Positions 647 through 6,242 of a stretch of 10,619 bases of DNA are shown piece after piece. Numbering within the stretch: the stretch's first letter is position 1; the number at the start of each line of letters is the position of its first letter. The stretch is from a virus: UHGV virus genome UHGV-2135452; one strand, 5' to 3'. The translations under genes and the position numbers were made by a program. Under the pieces are notes generated by a model that was not told the DNA's origin, searched no databases, and saw nothing but the letters and a program-made list of their open reading frames with translations.

Positions 647-2980
647 TCAGGTTGTTGCAGGGTCGTCACATTTTGGCAGCCAGTCGCCGTAGCTTTCCTC
701 TTTCAGCGTCAGGTTGGTCTGTATCCCCTGTTTGGTATGGCGCTTCTCGTAATTCAGTCCGTATTCCTTCAGCATCACCGGCAGCCCCAGCCCGAACATT
801 TTCAGACTGAGTACATTCCGGTAGCCGTTTGCCTCCATGTAGGCCAGATAGGCGTGATAGAGGTATTTACGGTAATTACGCGGGATGATACTGGCGTTCC
901 CCATATACATGCCGCTGGTCTGCGGCAGGGTTTCCAGATAGCCGATAAAATCAAACGTCGGGTCGGCATCCCGTTTGATGTTCAGTGCCTCGTCTGAGTT
1001 CTGCTGGGACTGAAGCAGTGACCGGGCGAGCATCGGGTCGCTGAACTTCTGCATCAGGTGACGCACGATGACCGCCAGCTCGCGGGTGATTTTGTCCTTA
1101 AGCTGCGGGTCGCGCTCCTGCGGGGCTATCTGTTCCGGGAAGTGAATAATCACCCGCCGGCGTGACACGCCGCCGCTGCGGTCGGTGAAGCGCATCGGGT
1201 TATTGTTCACGGCCAGAATCACCGCCGGGATATGCGTGGAGTACGCATCCCGGTATTTCGGGTCAACGGACACCGCGTCGCCGCCGGTGATGGCCTTGAG
1301 TCCGGCACCGTCGCCGCTCCATTTTTCCTGGTCCGGCAGGCGTATCAGTGAGAAGCCAGTTAACGCGGCACGTTCACGCGGGGATTCCAGCGTCTCGATG
1401 GTGGCCGACGTGGCGTTATCCTCCCCGGCCAGCAGGGTGGCTATTTCGGCCATGATACTTTTGCCGCTGCCGCCGGGACCGGTCACCTCCAGAAAGAGCT
1501 GCCAGTCGTAGCGGTTTGCCAGCACCATAAACAGTGCGGCCAGAATCACGTCGCGTTTTTCCGCACGGCCACCGGCGGCACGGTCAAGCCAGCGCCAGAA
1601 CGCGGGGGCGTGGGTTTCCAGCGTTTCCCCTTCCACCGGCGGGGTGAAATCCACATCGCACAGGGTACGCATCCAGTGTGACGGACTGTGCGGGTGGAAC
1701 GTGCCGTTCTGCGTGTCGAGCACGCCGTTACGAAAGCCAATCAGGCGGCGGGAGGGGGCTTCCTGCTGCGGAATAATCAGCTTCAGGGTGTCCACCACGG
1801 AGGCCACCTTCCCGGAGGAGAACGGCGCGCGCAGACGCTGAAACAGCCCGGCCACATCCCGGGCAAAGTCCTGTGGTGGCAGCACCTTCCAGACACCATT
1901 TTCATAACGGGACAGAAGCTGGCCGTTGGCATCGACCGCGAGCGCCTCGCCGTAATGCTCATAGATACGCATGGCCTTTTCGCTGGTACTCATGGCGGAA
2001 AACTCCGCTTCGCTCATGGTGTCGAACGGGCTTTCAGCCGGTGGCCGGATGGCATCGTAAATGGCCTTACGGGTGGCCTCCCCGCCGTACTGCGTGAAGG
2101 CATCATTCCAGTCACCGAAGACCGGCGGCAGGGCAACAACGCCCTCACACGCATCTGCGGCTGCGGCGGCTTTTGTCTGGCCGTCACCGCTGAGGTCACG
2201 GTCTGCGGCAAGGACAATCTGACAGGCCGGATACTTCTGTCGGGCAAGGCTGGCCAGAGAAAGGAGGTTCACGGAAGAAAGCGCCACCATCACCGTTTCA
2301 CCGGTCAGGTGATGCACGGTAAGTGCGGTCGCGTATCCCTCCGCTATCCACAGACGTTTTCCTGCCTGATTCTGTCCTTCAAGGGTGTGACAGGTGCCCC
2401 TGACCTGTCCGCCTTTCAGGGTGCGCTTACGGCCGTCAGCACTGATTAACTGAAGGTTAACCAGTTCGCCGCTGTCGTCATACAGTGGCACCACAAGGTC
2501 ACCGGCGCGCCAGCTCACGCCACCGGCTCTGTGTGTGCCGGTCAGCATCCGGCATTCCCGGCCGGGAAAGCCCTTGCGGGTCAGGTAGGCGTTACCGGTT
2601 CCGGGACGGGTTTTCGCCATCAGGGTTTGTGCCAGTGCGGCGGCGTTCTTCCGGGCAGCGTCTGTTTCAGCACCGGCGGCAGCCGTCACTGCCGGGTCAG
2701 CCGGGGGCAGGCTGCCGGTCACGGCAGCCACCTTTGCGGCCGCATCGGACGGGGAAACACCAAACACCTTTTCAACCAGTTTCAGGCCGTCACCGGCACC
2801 ACACTGATTGCAGTACCAGGTGCCGCGCCCCTCCCTGTCATCAAAACGGAAGCGGTCACTCCCGCCACAGACCGGACAGGGCTGATGACGGTTTTTCAGC
2901 ACCTGAATCCCCAGCGCCGGGAGAATACGCGGCCAGTGGCCGAGCGCATGGCTGACGGTGGCGGTTACGTTCATTTTCAT
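647..2980 (-). CDS. alpha: P4 alpha-type replication protein (primase / SF3 helicase / origin-binding), 777 aa
   Basis: Length equals P4 alpha. N-terminal zinc-finger CPVCGG...CNQCG, TOPRIM-like AEGYATAL and AADRD, Walker A GPGGSGKS. ATG start; terminator downstream. Confidence 0.95.
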   Translation of the reverse strand: MKMNVTATVSHALGHWPRILPALGIQVLKNRHQPCPVCGGSDRFRFDDREGRGTWYCNQCGAGDGLKLVEKVFGVSPSDAAAKVAAVTGSLPPADPAVTAAAGAETDAARKNAAALAQTLMAKTRPGTGNAYLTRKGFPGRECRMLTGTHRAGGVSWRAGDLVVPLYDDSGELVNLQLISADGRKRTLKGGQVRGTCHTLEGQNQAGKRLWIAEGYATALTVHHLTGETVMVALSSVNLLSLASLARQKYPACQIVLAADRDLSGDGQTKAAAAADACEGVVALPPVFGDWNDAFTQYGGEATRKAIYDAIRPPAESPFDTMSEAEFSAMSTSEKAMRIYEHYGEALAVDANGQLLSRYENGVWKVLPPQDFARDVAGLFQRLRAPFSSGKVASVVDTLKLIIPQQEAPSRRLIGFRNGVLDTQNGTFHPHSPSHWMRTLCDVDFTPPVEGETLETHAPAFWRWLDRAAGGRAEKRDVILAALFMVLANRYDWQLFLEVTGPGGSGKSIMAEIATLLAGEDNATSATIETLESPRERAALTGFSLIRLPDQEKWSGDGAGLKAITGGDAVSVDPKYRDAYSTHIPAVILAVNNNPMRFTDRSGGVSRRRVIIHFPEQIAPQERDPQLKDKITRELAVIVRHLMQKFSDPMLARSLLQSQQNSDEALNIKRDADPTFDFIGYLETLPQTSGMYMGNASIIPRNYRKYLYHAYLAYMEANGYRNVLSLKMFGLGLPVMLKEYGLNYEKRHTKQGIQTNLTLKEESYGDWLPKCDDPATT

Positions 2981-2994
2981 GGTGTTGTTCTCCT

Positions 2995-3315
2995 TCAGTG
3001 CAGTACCGGCGCTTTTATGTGACGGGCACAGAGTTCATCCATCACAACCAGCCCGAGAAAGGACAGCGACGGCGCGGCCTTCAGGGGGCCGGATTCCATT
3101 AAATCTTCCAGCAGGGCACAGGCTATCTGACGCCCTTTTTCCTCACCGTGCTGGCGCAGATAAAAGCCTTCCAGCTCAGCGGCGATGGCAGCCTCCAGTG
3201 ATTCAAGGGTGAGATGCGGGTAGCGGTGCTGACGTTCGCACACGGTCAGCCAGGCACAGGCGACAGCGCGACGGTAAAGGGCTGCGCGTAAGACGGGCGG
3301 TAAGGGGGGGGGCAT
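2995..3315 (-). CDS. Hypothetical protein of the P4-like left operon (epsilon/orf position immediately upstream of alpha), 106 aa
   Basis: ATG at 3315 preceded by GGAGG with 7-nt spacing. Ends 14 nt before the alpha start. Codons 2-4 (PPP) are encoded by a 9-nt G/C homopolymer at 3304..3312. Confidence 0.6.
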
Positions 3316-3450
3316 TTGCTTTCCTCCCTGTGACAGATGACTGCATTCCGTGCCGGTTGCATTAACTGATAAGGCATATCTGCGTCTCCTGAAGACGTGC
3401 GTATCCCTGCGCGAATACGCACATTTAATTTTTCGGGTGTCGTTTTTTAA

Positions 3451-3906
3451 TTACAGATAATTGCGGTAACTGTTATCCGGGGTGATTTCCGGGTCAGGCT
3501 CCGTGCGGGGAATTTCCCGCCATTCCCGCGCCACCGGTGCCGCCCGGCTGACCGGAACAGGGTCCTGCGGGTAAATATCCAGATATTTCTCCCGCCATTT
3601 CTGTAATTCCGGGTCTCCGGCCATTTCTTTCAGTACCGCATGCCGGTTTACGGGGCTGCGTCTGAACAGGTCAGGACGGTCACAGGTAAATTCCCGCAGA
3701 AAACGCCCCAGCGGGATGTCTGTGGTGCGCCCGTCAGCGAGGATACGCACAAGGATACTGAATTTACGGCGGTACGGATTCCAGACAATGTCCGGGCAGC
3801 GGTACGGCATTTCCCACGGAATACCGTCTTCCAGAATGCCGACCACGGCCACATCGGGAAAACCGGCAGAACGGTAAATCTCACCGGGCTGGGGAAAATC
3901 AAACAT
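3451..3906 (-). CDS. Hypothetical protein, 151 aa (same length as P4 orf151; assignment tentative)
   Basis: ATG at 3906 preceded by GGGGAG. Start overlaps the stop of the upstream ORF (ATGTTTGA), suggesting translational coupling within the left operon. Confidence 0.6.
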   Translation of the reverse strand: MFDFPQPGEIYRSAGFPDVAVVGILEDGIPWEMPYRCPDIVWNPYRRKFSILVRILADGRTTDIPLGRFLREFTCDRPDLFRRSPVNRHAVLKEMAGDPELQKWREKYLDIYPQDPVPVSRAAPVAREWREIPRTEPDPEITPDNSYRNYL

Positions 3907-4672: not shown

Positions 4673-4700
4673 CGGCTGCCGATTTTGCGGCAGCGGAAAA

Positions 4701-4730
4701 ACTATATCCGCAAATGCCGGAAAAAGGCAA
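4701..4730 (-). promoter_or_regulatory. Candidate sigma70 promoter (P_LE-like) for the immunity/alpha operon
   Basis: On the minus strand: -35 TTGCCT (4730..4725), 18-bp spacer, -10 TATAGT (4706..4701). Sits just after the vis stop and just before seqA. Confidence 0.45.
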
Positions 4731-4765
4731 GCCAGAAAAAGGGACTTTTTGCAGAGCGGGCATCA

Positions 4766-5032
4766 TCATGCGTCGTACCCCCGTTTGCGTCCGGCAATGC
4801 GCCCGGCCATCCATGCGGTGACTTCAGAGTGCAGCCAGGCCACATTTTTACCGCCAAGACTCACCTGCGGCGGAAATTCCCCCTTACGGATGAGTTCATA
4901 GATGGTCGAGCGTGACAGGCCGCACAGGTGCATCACTTCCGGCAGACGTAAAAAACGCTCCTGCGTGATGTCCGGCAGCGGCATCAGTGGCGTAACAGGG
5001 GCGGGAGACGGGGAAGAAAAAACAGCTTGCAT
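4766..5032 (-). CDS. vis: Vis / AlpA-family HTH regulator-excisionase, 88 aa
   Basis: AlpA/Xis-like HTH core [47 protein letters not shown] at 5032 preceded by GAGG. First gene downstream of the P_LL-like promoter, as in P4. Confidence 0.8.
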
Positions 5033-5084
5033 CGGGCTACCTCGTTAATGTCCATACAGCACCGGATAAGTCCGTCCGGCTTCG

Positions 5085-5152
5085 GGTAGCGCTTTATTTT
5101 GTGAATATTTTCAGCAGACGCAACAGGGGGGATTTGTTCCGGCAGCCTTACA
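5085..5152 (-). promoter_or_regulatory. Candidate Delta/Ogr-activated late promoter (P_LL-like)
   Basis: TGT-N12-ACA dyad at 5135..5152 (TGTTCCGGCAGCCTTACA), about 55 bp upstream of an AT-rich -10 region on the minus strand and about 100 bp upstream of vis. Confidence 0.5.
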
Positions 5153-5310
5153 ATGGCTGTGCATTTTTTGTACATCAGCGCCAGATAGCTTTAAAACGCT
5201 CTGGAAGGAGCTGGAAAAAATTATAGTGAAATACAAATTGTTTTTTCTTATTTATTTCAGTGAATTAATAAAAATAAAAAGTAATAAACAGCACAAAAAG
5301 CCCATCAACG

Positions 5311-5339
5311 GGTGAACAGTGGTGAACAGAGGTGAACAG
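5311..5339. other. ori1-like cluster of three 10-bp-phased type I iterons (GGTGAACAG x3) in an AT-rich tract
   Basis: GGTGAACAGT GGTGAACAGA GGTGAACAGT at 5311..5340. Same octamer as the crr iterons. Flanked by a very AT-rich segment at 5220..5310. About 4.8 kb from crr, consistent with P4 ori1-crr spacing. Confidence 0.55.
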
Positions 5340-5417
5340 TAAAATATAAAAAAACAAACAGTAAGCCGGTTTTTCCTGCGACCTTTTCCTGGCTTGCCGG
5401 TCTGAGGATGAGTCTCC

Positions 5418-5482
5418 TGTGTCAGGGCTGGCACATCTGCAATGCGTCGTGTTGCTGTCCGGTGTACGTCACAATTTTCTCA
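5418..5482 (+). promoter_or_regulatory. Candidate Delta/Ogr-activated late promoter (P_sid-like)
   Basis: TGT-N12-ACA dyad at 5418..5435 (TGTGTCAGGGCTGGCACA), about 90 bp upstream of the sid ATG and divergent from the P_LL-like dyad. Confidence 0.55.
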
Positions 5483-5507
5483 ACCTGAAGTGACGAGGAG
5501 CCGGAAA

Positions 5508-6242
5508 ATGTCTGACAACACCATCCCTGAATATCTGCAACCCGCACTGGCACAACTGGAAAAGGCCAGAGCCGCTCATCTTGAGAACGCCCGCCTGATG
5601 GATGAGACCGTCACGGCCATTGAACGGGCAGAGCAGGAAAAAAATGCGCTGACGCAGGCCGACGGAAATGACGCTGACGACTGGCGCACGGCCTTTCGTG
5701 CAGCCGGTGGTGTCCTGAGCGACGAGCTGAAACAGCGCCACATTGAGCGCGTGGCACGCCGGGAGCTGGTACAGGAATATGACAATCTGGCCGTGGTGCT
5801 GAATTTCGAACGTGAACGCCTGAAAGGGGCGTGTGACAGCACGGCCACCGCCTACCGGAAGGCACATCATCACCTTCTGAGTCTGTATGCAGAGCATGAG
5901 CTGGAACACGCCCTGAATGAAACCTGTGAGGCGCTTGTCCGGGCAATGCATCTGAGCATTCTGGTACAGGAAAATCCGCTCGCCAACACCACCGGCCATC
6001 AGGGCTACGTCGCACCGGAAAAGGCTGTCATGCAGCAGGTGAAATCATCGCTGGAACAGAAAATTAAACAGATGCAAATCAGCCTCACCGGCGAGCCGGT
6101 TCTCCGGCTGACCGGACTGTCAGCGGCAACACTCCCGCACATGGATTATGAGGTGGCAGGCACACCGGCACAGCGCAAGGTGTGGCAGGACAAAATAGAC
6201 CAGCAGGGAGCAGAGCTGAAGGCCAGAGGACTGCTGTCATGA
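5508..6242 (+). CDS. sid: Sid capsid size determination (external scaffold) protein, 244 aa
   Basis: Begins MSDNTIPEYLQPALAQLEKARAAHLENARLMDETV, recognised as P4 Sid. GAGGAG 7 nt upstream of ATG 5508. The track ORF starts earlier at 5442 but has no Shine-Dalgarno. Stop overlaps the delta start (ATGA). Confidence 0.9.
   Translation: MSDNTIPEYLQPALAQLEKARAAHLENARLMDETVTAIERAEQEKNALTQADGNDADDWRTAFRAAGGVLSDELKQRHIERVARRELVQEYDNLAVVLNFERERLKGACDSTATAYRKAHHHLLSLYAEHELEHALNETCEALVRAMHLSILVQENPLANTTGHQGYVAPEKAVMQQVKSSLEQKIKQMQISLTGEPVLRLTGLSAATLPHMDYEVAGTPAQRKVWQDKIDQQGAELKARGLLS

What the first reader, a model, noticed from the sequence alone, without database searches (positions are those of the whole stretch)
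3304..3312. 9-nt G/C homopolymer encoding Pro-Pro-Pro at codons 2-4 of the ORF just upstream of alpha
A G9 run (C9 on the coding strand) sits immediately after the ATG of the 106-aa ORF, which has a strong GGAGG ribosome-binding site. Tracts of this length are prone to slipped-strand mispairing and could switch the gene on and off, with possible polar effects on alpha translation. The MPPP N-terminus would also be a ribosome-stalling motif likely to need EF-P.
Basis: seen in the sequence. Interest (0 to 1): 0.4.

Follow-up and report, generated by a model that had tools for sequence, protein, structure and literature searches.

The report
Slippery nine-C tract starting P4 cnr
In a minority of P4-like phage satellites, the copy-number-control gene cnr begins with nine C's that were built by stepwise A-to-C changes; the run now often gains or loses a base, re-routing or shutting off translation of the protein, so it is a real mutational hot spot but not a proven purposeful switch.

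Summary
G9 lies at 3304-3312 (C9 on the coding strand), directly after the ATG of a 106-aa ORF with a GGGAGG ribosome-binding site, 14 nt upstream of alpha.

The ORF is cnr (phage P4 ORF106, Pfam DUF5375), the copy-number regulator of a P4-like satellite. P4 and about 90% of relatives read ATG AAA ACA CCC at this position. Every intermediate allele exists: A4C5, A3C6, A2C7, AC8 and C9. All keep a 9-nt spacer, so the run grew by boundary migration, not by insertion.

At nine C's the run is unstable. Public assemblies hold C7, C8 and C10 versions on flanks identical over 3.1 kb to C9 elements, in at least three haplotype groups. About 17% of C9-family contigs are off-length.

The indels do not simply switch the gene off. 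C10 and C7 fuse Cnr to a 21-codon upstream ORF that has its own AGGAG. C8 puts Cnr in frame with an ATG that lacks a ribosome-binding site.

AUG-CCC-CCC-CCC-U is also a polyproline motif and a known +1 ribosomal-frameshift context.

Hypermutability is supported. Adaptive phase variation, EF-P dependence and polarity on alpha remain untested. I rate it a new member of a known kind, of moderate interest.

The parts
3304..3312 (-). C9 homopolymer (G9 on the + strand), forming codons 2-4 (CCC CCC CCC, Pro-Pro-Pro) of cnr. It is the hypermutable element.
   Evidence: Length variants C7, C8 and C10 occur on identical flanks.
2995..3315 (-). cnr (phage P4 ORF106, DUF5375), 106 aa. It is the regulator of P4 plasmid copy number.
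   Evidence: Pfam PF17345, E=1.1e-62. The surrounding 601 bp (2900-3500) is 98% identical to P4, and the protein differs from P4 ORF106 only at residues 2-3. The role of cnr is described in PMC8628076.
3323..3328 (-). Shine-Dalgarno GGGAGG of cnr, 7 nt from the ATG. P4 itself has GGGAGA.
3246..3377 (-). Upstream small ORF (uORF), ATG at 3375-3377. In standard alleles it has 21 codons and ends in a TGA that overlaps the cnr ATG (ATGA). In the C9 allele TGA becomes TGC, so the uORF runs on to 43 codons (stop at 3246-3248). C10 and C7 fuse it in frame to Cnr.
   Evidence: The fusion proteins are found in public data (P0135, P0136, P0138). The uORF is homologous in position and frame to the 3' end of a 74-75-aa gene in distant P4-likes.
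3386..3390 (-). AGGAG ribosome-binding site of the uORF, 8 nt from its ATG.
   Evidence: sequence.
3344..3346 (-). Alternative ATG (ATGCAG) with no good Shine-Dalgarno. It comes into frame with the Cnr body when the tract is C8, giving a 116-aa product starting [19 protein letters not shown].
   Evidence: The product P0126 is present on 18 contigs and in 38 index blocks, and the DNA was confirmed.
647..2980 (-). alpha primase-helicase, immediately downstream. Its AGGAG overlaps the cnr stop codon (2995-2997), so translational coupling or polarity is possible but was not tested.

Best explanation
The tract is a recently evolved, hypermutable mononucleotide run at codons 2-4 of cnr, the negative regulator of replication of a P4-like phage satellite.

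How it arose. In a sub-lineage of E. coli satellites, the ancestral ATG-AAAACA-CCC was converted one base at a time to ATG-CCCCCCCCC. The order was A4C5, A3C6, A2C7, AC8, C9. Each step changed the A next to the growing C run. This fits transient-misalignment (dislocation) substitution, or paired -A/+C slippage that restores the frame (inferred).

What it does now. At nine C's the run undergoes replication slippage (+1, -1, -2) far more often than the flanking DNA acquires point mutations (shown by comparison of assemblies). Each indel takes the Cnr body out of frame with its own ATG and GGGAGG site. C10 and C7 fuse it to a 21-codon upstream ORF with its own AGGAG. C8 puts it in frame with an ATG that lacks a ribosome-binding site. 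Cnr dose and N-terminus therefore change heritably and reversibly (reading frames shown; expression inferred). Even the in-frame C9 allele should be translated less well, because AUG-CCC-CCC-CCC-U combines a PPP stall, the slowest proline codon and the most +1-frameshift-prone second-codon context (inferred from the literature).

Most likely status. It is probably a tolerated mutational hot spot rather than a selected switch. By my recollection, cnr is not expressed while the satellite sits integrated and immune, so frame changes would accumulate nearly neutrally there and be purged when plasmid-state copy control is needed (inferred).
For: Identity of the gene:
- Pfam DUF5375, E=1e-62.
- The surrounding 601 bp is 98% identical to P4.
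- All 5 differences in codons 2-3 are A-to-C, against about 1% divergence elsewhere.

Stepwise series, read in DNA:
- AAAACACCC x102, AAAACCCCC x5, AAACCCCCC x1, AACCCCCCC x1, AAAACTCCC x2 among 111 contigs, all with a 9-nt spacer.
- ACCCCCCCC and CCCCCCCCC in complete E. coli genomes.
- Only contiguous A/C combinations were seen.
- C6 and C7 share one 761-nt haplotype. AC8 and C9 share another.

Frequencies in the 15-billion-protein collection (contigs):
- MKPP 209, MNPP 113, MTPP 50, MPPP 157.
- Ten other single-substitution variants of the same two codons: 0-9 contigs each.

Length instability:
- Predicted frameshift products exist. C8 gives P0126 (18 contigs, 38 index blocks). C10 gives P0135 and P0138 (4+7 contigs). 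C7 gives P0136 and P0165 (2+1 contigs).
- The DNA tracts were confirmed.
- Zero-SNP 3.1-kb haplotype groups hold C7/C8/C9/C10 (group I), C8/C9/C10 (group II) and C7/C9 (group III).
- The same C8 contig was seen in 4-5 independent samples.
- alpha is intact at 777 aa in nearly all off-length loci.
- No -1 products were found for the AC8 allele (base 50 contigs) or the A2C7 allele (base 113 contigs).

Other support:
- Reading-frame consequences were computed.
- In E. coli, indel rates rise exponentially with run length, and 8-bp G.C runs are already outliers (PMC8510543).
- CCC is the slowest proline codon, and CCC-C promotes +1 frameshifting (PMC8129111). The effect is strongest at the second codon and needs m1G37 and EF-P (PMC6335274).
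- Residues 2-8 of the Cnr family are poorly conserved, so K2/T3-to-P should be tolerated.
Against: - There are no read-level data, so within-culture heterogeneity and true switching rates are unknown.
- Some off-length calls could be assembly or sequencing errors at the homopolymer.
- None of the three C9 elements in RefSeq complete genomes has an off-length relative in that collection. With n=3 this test is weak.
- The jump from 0/50 (AC8) and 0/113 (A2C7) -1 variants to 18/157 (C9) is steeper than a smooth exponential would predict. Lineage age or selection may contribute.
- Over 80% of the C9 family stays in frame. This could reflect purifying selection, or simply that the lineage is young.
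- The neutral by-product reading rests on my recollection that cnr is silent in the integrated immune state. The primary P4 literature is not held in the library.
- The predicted effect of the C run on ribosome-binding-site accessibility is small. The opening energy rises from 10.2 to 12.0 kcal/mol, and the site is about 80% paired in all alleles.
Confidence: 0.62

Rival explanations
1. Adaptive contingency locus. The C tract is a selected three-state translational switch: native Cnr at C9, the uORF-Cnr fusion at C10/C7, and weak or off at C8. It would let a clonal population of satellites hedge between tight copy control (stable plasmid or lysogen) and runaway replication on helper infection.
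For: - Length polymorphism occurs on identical flanks in three haplotype groups.
- About 17% of contigs are off-length.
- Every frame retains an ATG-initiated ORF through the Cnr body, and the fusion frame has a good AGGAG.
- Off-length elements keep an intact alpha.
- C8 lineages persist across several samples.
- The run-extension alleles are 10-100 times commoner than other substitutions at the same codons.
Against: - The tract is absent from P4 and from about 90% of relatives. It is also absent from other genera, where codons 2-4 vary freely.
- The upstream ORF is an evolutionary remnant of a 75-aa gene, not a purpose-built start.
- Open frames of 14-22 codons upstream are not improbable by chance.
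- From general knowledge, E. coli is mismatch-repair proficient and is not known to use mononucleotide contingency loci.
- Cnr is not a surface or defence protein under fluctuating selection.
Confidence: 0.15
2. Translational tuning allele. The relevant property is not instability but reduced Cnr output from the in-frame allele. The proposed causes are loss of the favourable AAA second codon, three slow CCC codons, PPP stalling, +1 frameshift-prone CCC-C, a stronger hairpin between the ribosome-binding site and the C run, and loss of the ATGA stop-start overlap with the uORF. On this view, stepwise selection for lower Cnr (higher replication) built the run, and slippage is a side effect.
For: - The change is directional and monotonic, from A4C5 to C9.
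- The alleles are far more frequent than other substitutions at these codons.
- ATGAAAAC is conserved across distant P4-likes.
- Literature on CCC, PPP and CCC-C supports a translational effect.
- The predicted opening energy rises by 1.8-4 kcal/mol.
- The final step (AC8 to C9) destroys the TGA of the uORF.
Against: - There is no expression measurement.
- The fold differences are small, and the ribosome-binding site is predicted to be mostly paired in all alleles.
- With EF-P and TrmD present, PPP and CCC-C effects are usually modest.
- A strictly contiguous order of substitutions is what a mutational mechanism predicts. Selection on expression would also accept non-adjacent changes, and none was seen.
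Confidence: 0.25
3. Artefact. The C9 allele is real but stable, and the C7/C8/C10 versions are homopolymer errors of sequencing or assembly.
For: - Homopolymers are a known error source.
- No off-length copy is present among RefSeq complete genomes.
- Many off-length contigs come from automated assemblies (Logan, ENA).
Against: - Off-length alleles recur in NCBI, ENA and Logan assemblies from unrelated projects.
- Identical C8 contigs appear in 4-5 samples, plus further similar places.
- One C8 copy is in a finished chromosome (CP012112.1).
- No comparable -1 products were found for the AC8 or A2C7 alleles, despite 50 and 113 contigs.
- From general knowledge, consensus errors at 9-nt runs are rare in short-read assemblies.
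Confidence: 0.08

Closest known systems
Phage P4 cnr (ORF106; UniProt YQ55_BPP4; Pfam DUF5375)
   Same: It is the same gene in the same place, between orf151 and alpha. The surrounding 601 bp is 98% identical at the DNA level, and the protein is identical except at residues 2-3.
   Different: P4 reads ATG AAA ACA CCC (MKTP), has a GGGAGA ribosome-binding site, and keeps the TGA of the upstream small ORF overlapping the ATG. The window reads ATG CCC CCC CCC (MPPP), has GGGAGG, and has lost that TGA.
Simple-sequence contingency loci of Haemophilus, Neisseria and Campylobacter (poly-G/C or tetranucleotide tracts in 5' coding regions; for example H. influenzae lic1A, which has alternative ATGs in different frames). 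This comparison is from general knowledge.
   Same: A repeat tract lies just after the start codon, and its length sets the reading frame. Alternative in-frame starts give more than two expression states. Tract length is polymorphic among otherwise identical strains.
   Different: The host is mismatch-repair-proficient E. coli. The tract is a rare, recently derived allele, not a conserved feature. The gene is a replication regulator of a mobile element. No switching rate or phenotype has been measured.
CC[C/U]-[C/U] +1 frameshift-prone sites at the second codon, and EF-P-dependent polyproline motifs (Gamper et al. 2015, as reviewed in PMC6335274; Krafczyk et al. 2021, PMC8129111)
   Same: AUG-CCC-CCC-CCC-U places CCC-C at codons 2 and 3 and CCC-U at codon 4, and it encodes PPP followed by LPP.
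   Different: Only the sequence context is established here. Frameshifting, stalling and EF-P or TrmD dependence of cnr were not measured.
Coupled 75-aa gene and cnr gene pair of most P4-like satellites (de Sousa and Rocha 2021, PMC8628076)
   Same: A stop-start overlap (ATGA) precedes cnr, and the ribosome-binding site lies inside the last codons of the upstream ORF.
   Different: In P4 and in this window only a 21-codon remnant of the upstream gene is left, with a new ATG and AGGAG. In the C9 allele even its stop codon is gone.

Membership tests
Cnr / DUF5375 (P4 ORF106) | Sequence match to PF17345 above the gathering score, and to P4 ORF106 | tested here: met
   209 bits against a cut-off of 30, E=1.1e-62. 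The protein differs from P4 ORF106 only at residues 2-3.
Cnr / DUF5375 (P4 ORF106) | Position in the P4 left operon, directly upstream of the alpha primase-helicase | tested here: met
   The order orf151 - cnr - alpha is the same in the window and in NC_001609.
Cnr / DUF5375 (P4 ORF106) | Negative control of replication through binding of the alpha protein | not testable with these tools
   Known from the P4 literature (recalled: Terzano 1994, Ziegelin 1997; neither is held in the library). The general role is stated in PMC8628076.
Simple-sequence contingency locus (phase-variable gene) | Repeat tract in the coding region whose length sets the reading frame | tested here: met
   The C9 run forms codons 2-4. 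A +/-1 change shifts the frame relative to the cnr ATG.
Simple-sequence contingency locus (phase-variable gene) | Tract-length polymorphism among otherwise near-identical strains | tested here: met
   C7, C8, C9 and C10 occur on 3.1-kb flanks with 0 SNPs in three haplotype groups. 32 of about 189 contigs are off-length.
Simple-sequence contingency locus (phase-variable gene) | High-frequency reversible switching within one clone | not testable with these tools
   No read-level or culture data are available.
Simple-sequence contingency locus (phase-variable gene) | Tract maintained across the population or orthologues | tested here: not met
   102 of 111 contigs, and about 1000 of 1007 E. coli genomes with the gene, carry AAAACACCC or other short-run alleles. 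Other genera have unrelated codons 2-4.
Simple-sequence contingency locus (phase-variable gene) | Off-length states abolish or change expression of the product | tested here: inconclusive
   The frames change, but an ATG-initiated ORF through the Cnr body exists in every frame. Expression was not measured.
EF-P-dependent polyproline stalling motif | Three or more consecutive prolines | tested here: met
   MPPPLPP, with PPP encoded by CCC CCC CCC.
EF-P-dependent polyproline stalling motif | Expression depends on EF-P | not testable with these tools
   This needs a reporter in an efp-deleted strain.
CC[C/U]-[C/U] +1 ribosomal frameshift-prone site at the second codon | CCC-C directly after the start codon | tested here: met
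   AUG CCC C. The motif is defined in PMC6335274 and PMC8129111.
CC[C/U]-[C/U] +1 ribosomal frameshift-prone site at the second codon | Measurable +1 frameshifting | not testable with these tools
   This needs dual-frame reporters, with and without TrmD and EF-P.

The most novel reading that the evidence does not exclude
The C tract is a genuine three-state translational phase switch on the copy-number regulator of a phage satellite. C9 gives native Cnr. C10 and C7 give a uORF-Cnr fusion, or Cnr rescued from its own ATG by +1 ribosomal frameshifting at CCC-C. C8 gives little or none. Clonal populations of P4-like elements would then hedge between controlled plasmid or lysogenic maintenance and runaway replication. 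As far as I know, this would be the first mononucleotide contingency locus described in a satellite, in mismatch-repair-proficient E. coli. The natural intermediates would also document how such a tract is born.
Probability: 0.12. Interest if true: 0.7.

Novelty: new member of a known kind. Interest (0 to 1): 0.4.

Why it matters
Cnr sets how far a P4-type satellite replicates. A heritable, reversible change in its dose or N-terminus would alter satellite copy number and perhaps transfer success.

The locus also gives an unusually complete natural record of how a hypermutable homopolymer is assembled. All six boundary states from A4C5 to C9 are still segregating. Length instability was detected only for the C9 allele.

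It is a ready-made natural test case for second-codon CCC-C frameshifting and N-terminal PPP stalling.

Practically, annotators should expect cnr of this lineage to appear as 106-, 116-, 122-, 126- or 127-aa products, or as a pseudogene.

Tried and rejected
1. Pattern scans AGCAAATG-N{4,16}-TTACCGCCCGTCTTAC of viral, genome and metagenome contigs gave 111 loci, all with a 9-nt spacer. At first this looked like invariance. But none of those loci carried C8 or C9, so the scans could not test instability of the long run.

2. BLAST of C8 and C10 versions of the query against 5,426 complete E. coli genomes found no exact match. Only three genomes there carry C9, so this test is uninformative.

3. 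The idea that the C run pairs with the ribosome-binding site: folding predicts only a small rise in opening energy, and the site is about 80% paired in every allele. I kept it as a minor contributor only.

4. P0002 (MKNP) was suspected to be an A5C4 boundary state. Its DNA is ATG AAA AAT CCA from a different element, so I rejected this.

5. P0163 (..ANETP..) was suspected to be a -1 variant of the C6 allele. Its DNA is AAACACCC, the standard allele minus one A, so there is no confirmed slippage variant of the C6 allele.

6. The primary cnr papers (Terzano 1994, Ziegelin 1997) are not held in the library. Statements on Cnr biochemistry are therefore from memory and are marked as such.

7. The search for related loci with a family alignment returned only close relatives. 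Distant loci were obtained instead through the look-up of encoding contigs.

8. The promoter and terminator scan of 2900-3600 found nothing relevant on the coding strand.

Full report
**What is in the sequence**

On the + strand the window reads ...ggtaa-ggggggggg-cat-ttgctttcctccc.... G9 occupies 3304-3312. The complement of ATG is at 3313-3315. The complement of GGGAGG is at 3323-3328, 7 nt from the ATG. The ORF 2995..3315 (-) encodes 106 aa starting MPPPLPPVL. Fourteen nucleotides after its stop lies the ATG of a 777-aa primase-helicase (647..2980, -). That protein carries Zn-ribbon, Toprim, D5_N and Pox_D5 domains, so it is alpha. This is the only homopolymer of 9 or more bases in the window. 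A first-order Markov model expects 0.08 G/C runs of that length.

**What the gene is**

The region 2900-3500 is 98% identical to satellite phage P4. The ORF is P4 ORF106 and matches Pfam DUF5375 (E=1.1e-62). [quoted passage not shown] From memory of Terzano 1994 and Ziegelin 1997, which are not held in the library, Cnr binds alpha and inhibits replication. The window as a whole is a P4-like satellite: integrase, defence hotspot, psu-delta-sid, and the left operon ending in cnr-alpha.

**The tract is a derived allele built one base at a time**

P4 reads ATG AAA ACA CCC TTA. The window reads ATG CCC CCC CCC TTA. That is five A-to-C changes within six bases, against about 1% divergence elsewhere.

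A gapped pattern scan (AGCAAATG-N{4,16}-TTACCGCCCGTCTTAC) of viral, genome and metagenome contigs returned 111 loci. All had a 9-nt spacer:

| Spacer | Count |
|---|---|
| AAAACACCC | 102 |
| AAAACCCCC | 5 |
| AAAACTCCC | 2 |
| AAACCCCCC | 1 |
| AACCCCCCC | 1 |

Among 5,426 complete E. coli genomes, 1,007 carry the gene. Three have C9 (two sister strains from Osaka and a US poultry strain). Two have ACCCCCCCC. The rest have shorter runs. So every boundary state exists (A4C5, A3C6, A2C7, AC8, C9), and no non-contiguous A/C combination was seen.

Flanking haplotypes link the states. C6 and C7 share one 761-nt flanking haplotype. AC8 and one C9 element share another. The window's C9 sits on a third.

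In the 15-billion-protein collection, the corresponding proteins on the common body are seen on these numbers of contigs:

| N-terminus | Contigs |
|---|---|
| MKPP | 209 |
| MNPP | 113 |
| MTPP | 50 |
| MPPP | 157 |
| MKTP (standard) | at least 1000 |

Ten other single-substitution variants of codons 2-3 are on 0-9 contigs each. The series is therefore not just relaxed constraint on a variable N-terminus (residues 2-8 are poorly conserved in the family). Something favours conversion of the base adjacent to the run. I infer transient-misalignment (dislocation) substitution, or paired -A/+C slippage that restores the frame. Selection for lower Cnr output is the alternative.

**At nine C's the run is unstable**

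I predicted the proteins that each indel would produce and looked them up by exact sequence. All but the C11 product exist:

| Tract | Product | Contigs |
|---|---|---|
| ATG+C8 | 116-aa [19 protein letters not shown]... (P0126) | 18 (38 index blocks), including finished chromosome CP012112.1 |
| ATG+C10 | 127-aa [30 protein letters not shown]... (P0135) | 4 |
| ATG+C10 | 122-aa call by NCBI's annotation (P0138) | 7 |
| ATG+C7 | P0136 and P0165 | 2+1 |

The DNA of 22 such loci was fetched, and the tracts read directly as C7, C8, C9 or C10.

Flanks of 3.1 kb (1.7 kb upstream, 1.4 kb downstream) fall into haplotype groups with zero SNPs that nevertheless differ in tract length:
- Group I, identical to the window: C9, C8, C10 and C7.
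- Group II: C9, C8 and C10.
- Group III: C9 and C7.

That requires at least six independent, recent indel events. About 17% (32 of about 189 contigs) of the C9 family is off-length.

The same C8 contig recurs in 4-5 independent samples. alpha is intact in nearly all off-length loci. No -1 products were found for the AC8 allele (base 50 contigs) or the A2C7 allele (base 113 contigs). The only other 8-nt spacers are rare: AAACACCC and AAAACCCC. This agrees with the exponential dependence of indel rate on run length in E. coli, where even 8-bp G.C runs are outliers (PMC8510543). Artefact is unlikely as a general explanation, but it cannot be excluded for individual contigs.

**What the indels do**

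From the cnr ATG, C8 terminates after 22 codons and C10 after 37. But both other frames upstream of the tract are open back to an ATG.

One is a small upstream ORF (ATG 3375-3377, AGGAG 8 nt upstream). In standard alleles it has 21 codons and stops at a TGA that overlaps the cnr ATG (ATGA). C10 and C7 fuse it in frame to the Cnr body. The other is an ATG at 3344-3346 without a ribosome-binding site. It comes into frame at C8.

The states are therefore native, N-terminally extended fusion, and probably weak or off. This is not simply on and off.

The upstream ORF is a remnant. In Klebsiella, Salmonella, Pantoea and other P4-likes, a 74-75-aa gene ends ...GEGNV-TGA in the same frame. It shows the same ATGA overlap, and the cnr ribosome-binding site lies in its last codons. 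This is the 75-aa family noted as absent from P4 (PMC8628076). The final step of the series (AC8 to C9) destroys that TGA, so in the window the small ORF runs on for 43 codons across the cnr start.

**Translation of the in-frame allele**

AUG-CCC-CCC-CCC-UUA encodes PPP followed by LPP. CCC is the slowest proline codon, and CCC/U-C promotes +1 frameshifting even in wild-type cells (PMC8129111). The effect is strongest when CCC-C is the second codon, where m1G37 and EF-P are needed to hold the frame (PMC6335274).

A +1 ribosomal slip on a C10 template would restore native Cnr from its own ATG (inference).

Folding predicts only a modest extra cost of opening the initiation region. It rises from 10.2 to 12.0 kcal/mol in a 132-nt context and from 7.6 to 11.7 in an 82-nt context. 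The ribosome-binding site is about 80% paired in all alleles. Polarity on alpha is conceivable, because alpha's AGGAG overlaps the cnr stop, but it was not tested.

**Interpretation and verdict**

Slippage hypermutability is supported by comparative data. An adaptive phase switch is not. The tract is rare and young. The alternative starts are explicable as leftovers. The host is mismatch-repair proficient. By my recollection, cnr is not expressed in the integrated immune state, so frame changes may simply accumulate there.

I rate the hot-spot by-product reading at about 0.6, with translational tuning as a partly compatible rival at 0.25. An adaptive switch gets 0.15 and artefact 0.08.

Relative to known biology, this is a new member of a known kind: a hypermutable mononucleotide tract at the 5' end of a gene. 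It sits in an unusual place, the replication regulator of a phage satellite in E. coli, and it comes with an unusually complete record of its own origin. Interest is moderate (0.4).

Noticed in passing
window 7756-9113 (- strand); indel near 8249-8253: The SIR2-family defence gene in the integrase-psu hotspot is split in the window into 289-aa and 137-aa ORFs. The near-identical element in E. coli 2022H047 has an intact 452-aa gene (WP_001133507.1). The cause is a one-base loss in an A5 run (A5 to A4 on the coding strand).
   Followed up: yes
window 3246-3390 (- strand); L222-L232 around position 477-704: A small ORF with its own AGGAG precedes cnr. In standard alleles it ends in a TGA that overlaps the cnr ATG. 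It is the same-frame 3' remnant of a 74-75-aa gene that is translationally coupled (ATGA) to cnr in most other P4-like satellites. The C9 allele abolishes its stop codon.
   Followed up: partly
window 3397-3404 and 3415-3422: An 8-bp inverted repeat (GTGCGTAT ... ATACGCAC, 10-nt loop on the coding strand) lies between orf151 and the small ORF. It is annotated as a region of dyad symmetry in the old P4 record X02534. Its function is not known to me.
   Followed up: no
protein P0001 (cluster of 47 members), from ENA metagenome assemblies: This 125-aa protein, [28 protein letters not shown]..., is a fusion of the small upstream ORF to Cnr in a standard-allele background. It implies a 5-nt deletion that removes the cnr ATG (inferred from the protein only).
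   Followed up: no
protein P0149 (82 aa, MCERQHRY...), at least 1000 contigs: A very common gene call starts at the internal GTG (codon 25) of cnr. It may reflect start-codon choice by gene callers, or widespread disruption of the cnr 5' end. It was not resolved.
   Followed up: no
L135 (GCA_964038165.1) 4696-6069; L003 11584-13385: Some C9-bearing elements have insertion sequences in or just beyond alpha: a DDE transposase splits alpha in L135, and IS100 lies downstream of alpha in E. coli 2022H047. In 2022H047, alpha is also annotated 18 codons shorter than in the window.
   Followed up: no
window 3323-3328 vs P4 (L002): P4 itself has GGGAGA as the cnr ribosome-binding site. The window and 106 of 111 surveyed relatives have GGGAGG, so the reference phage carries the minority, weaker version.
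   Followed up: partly
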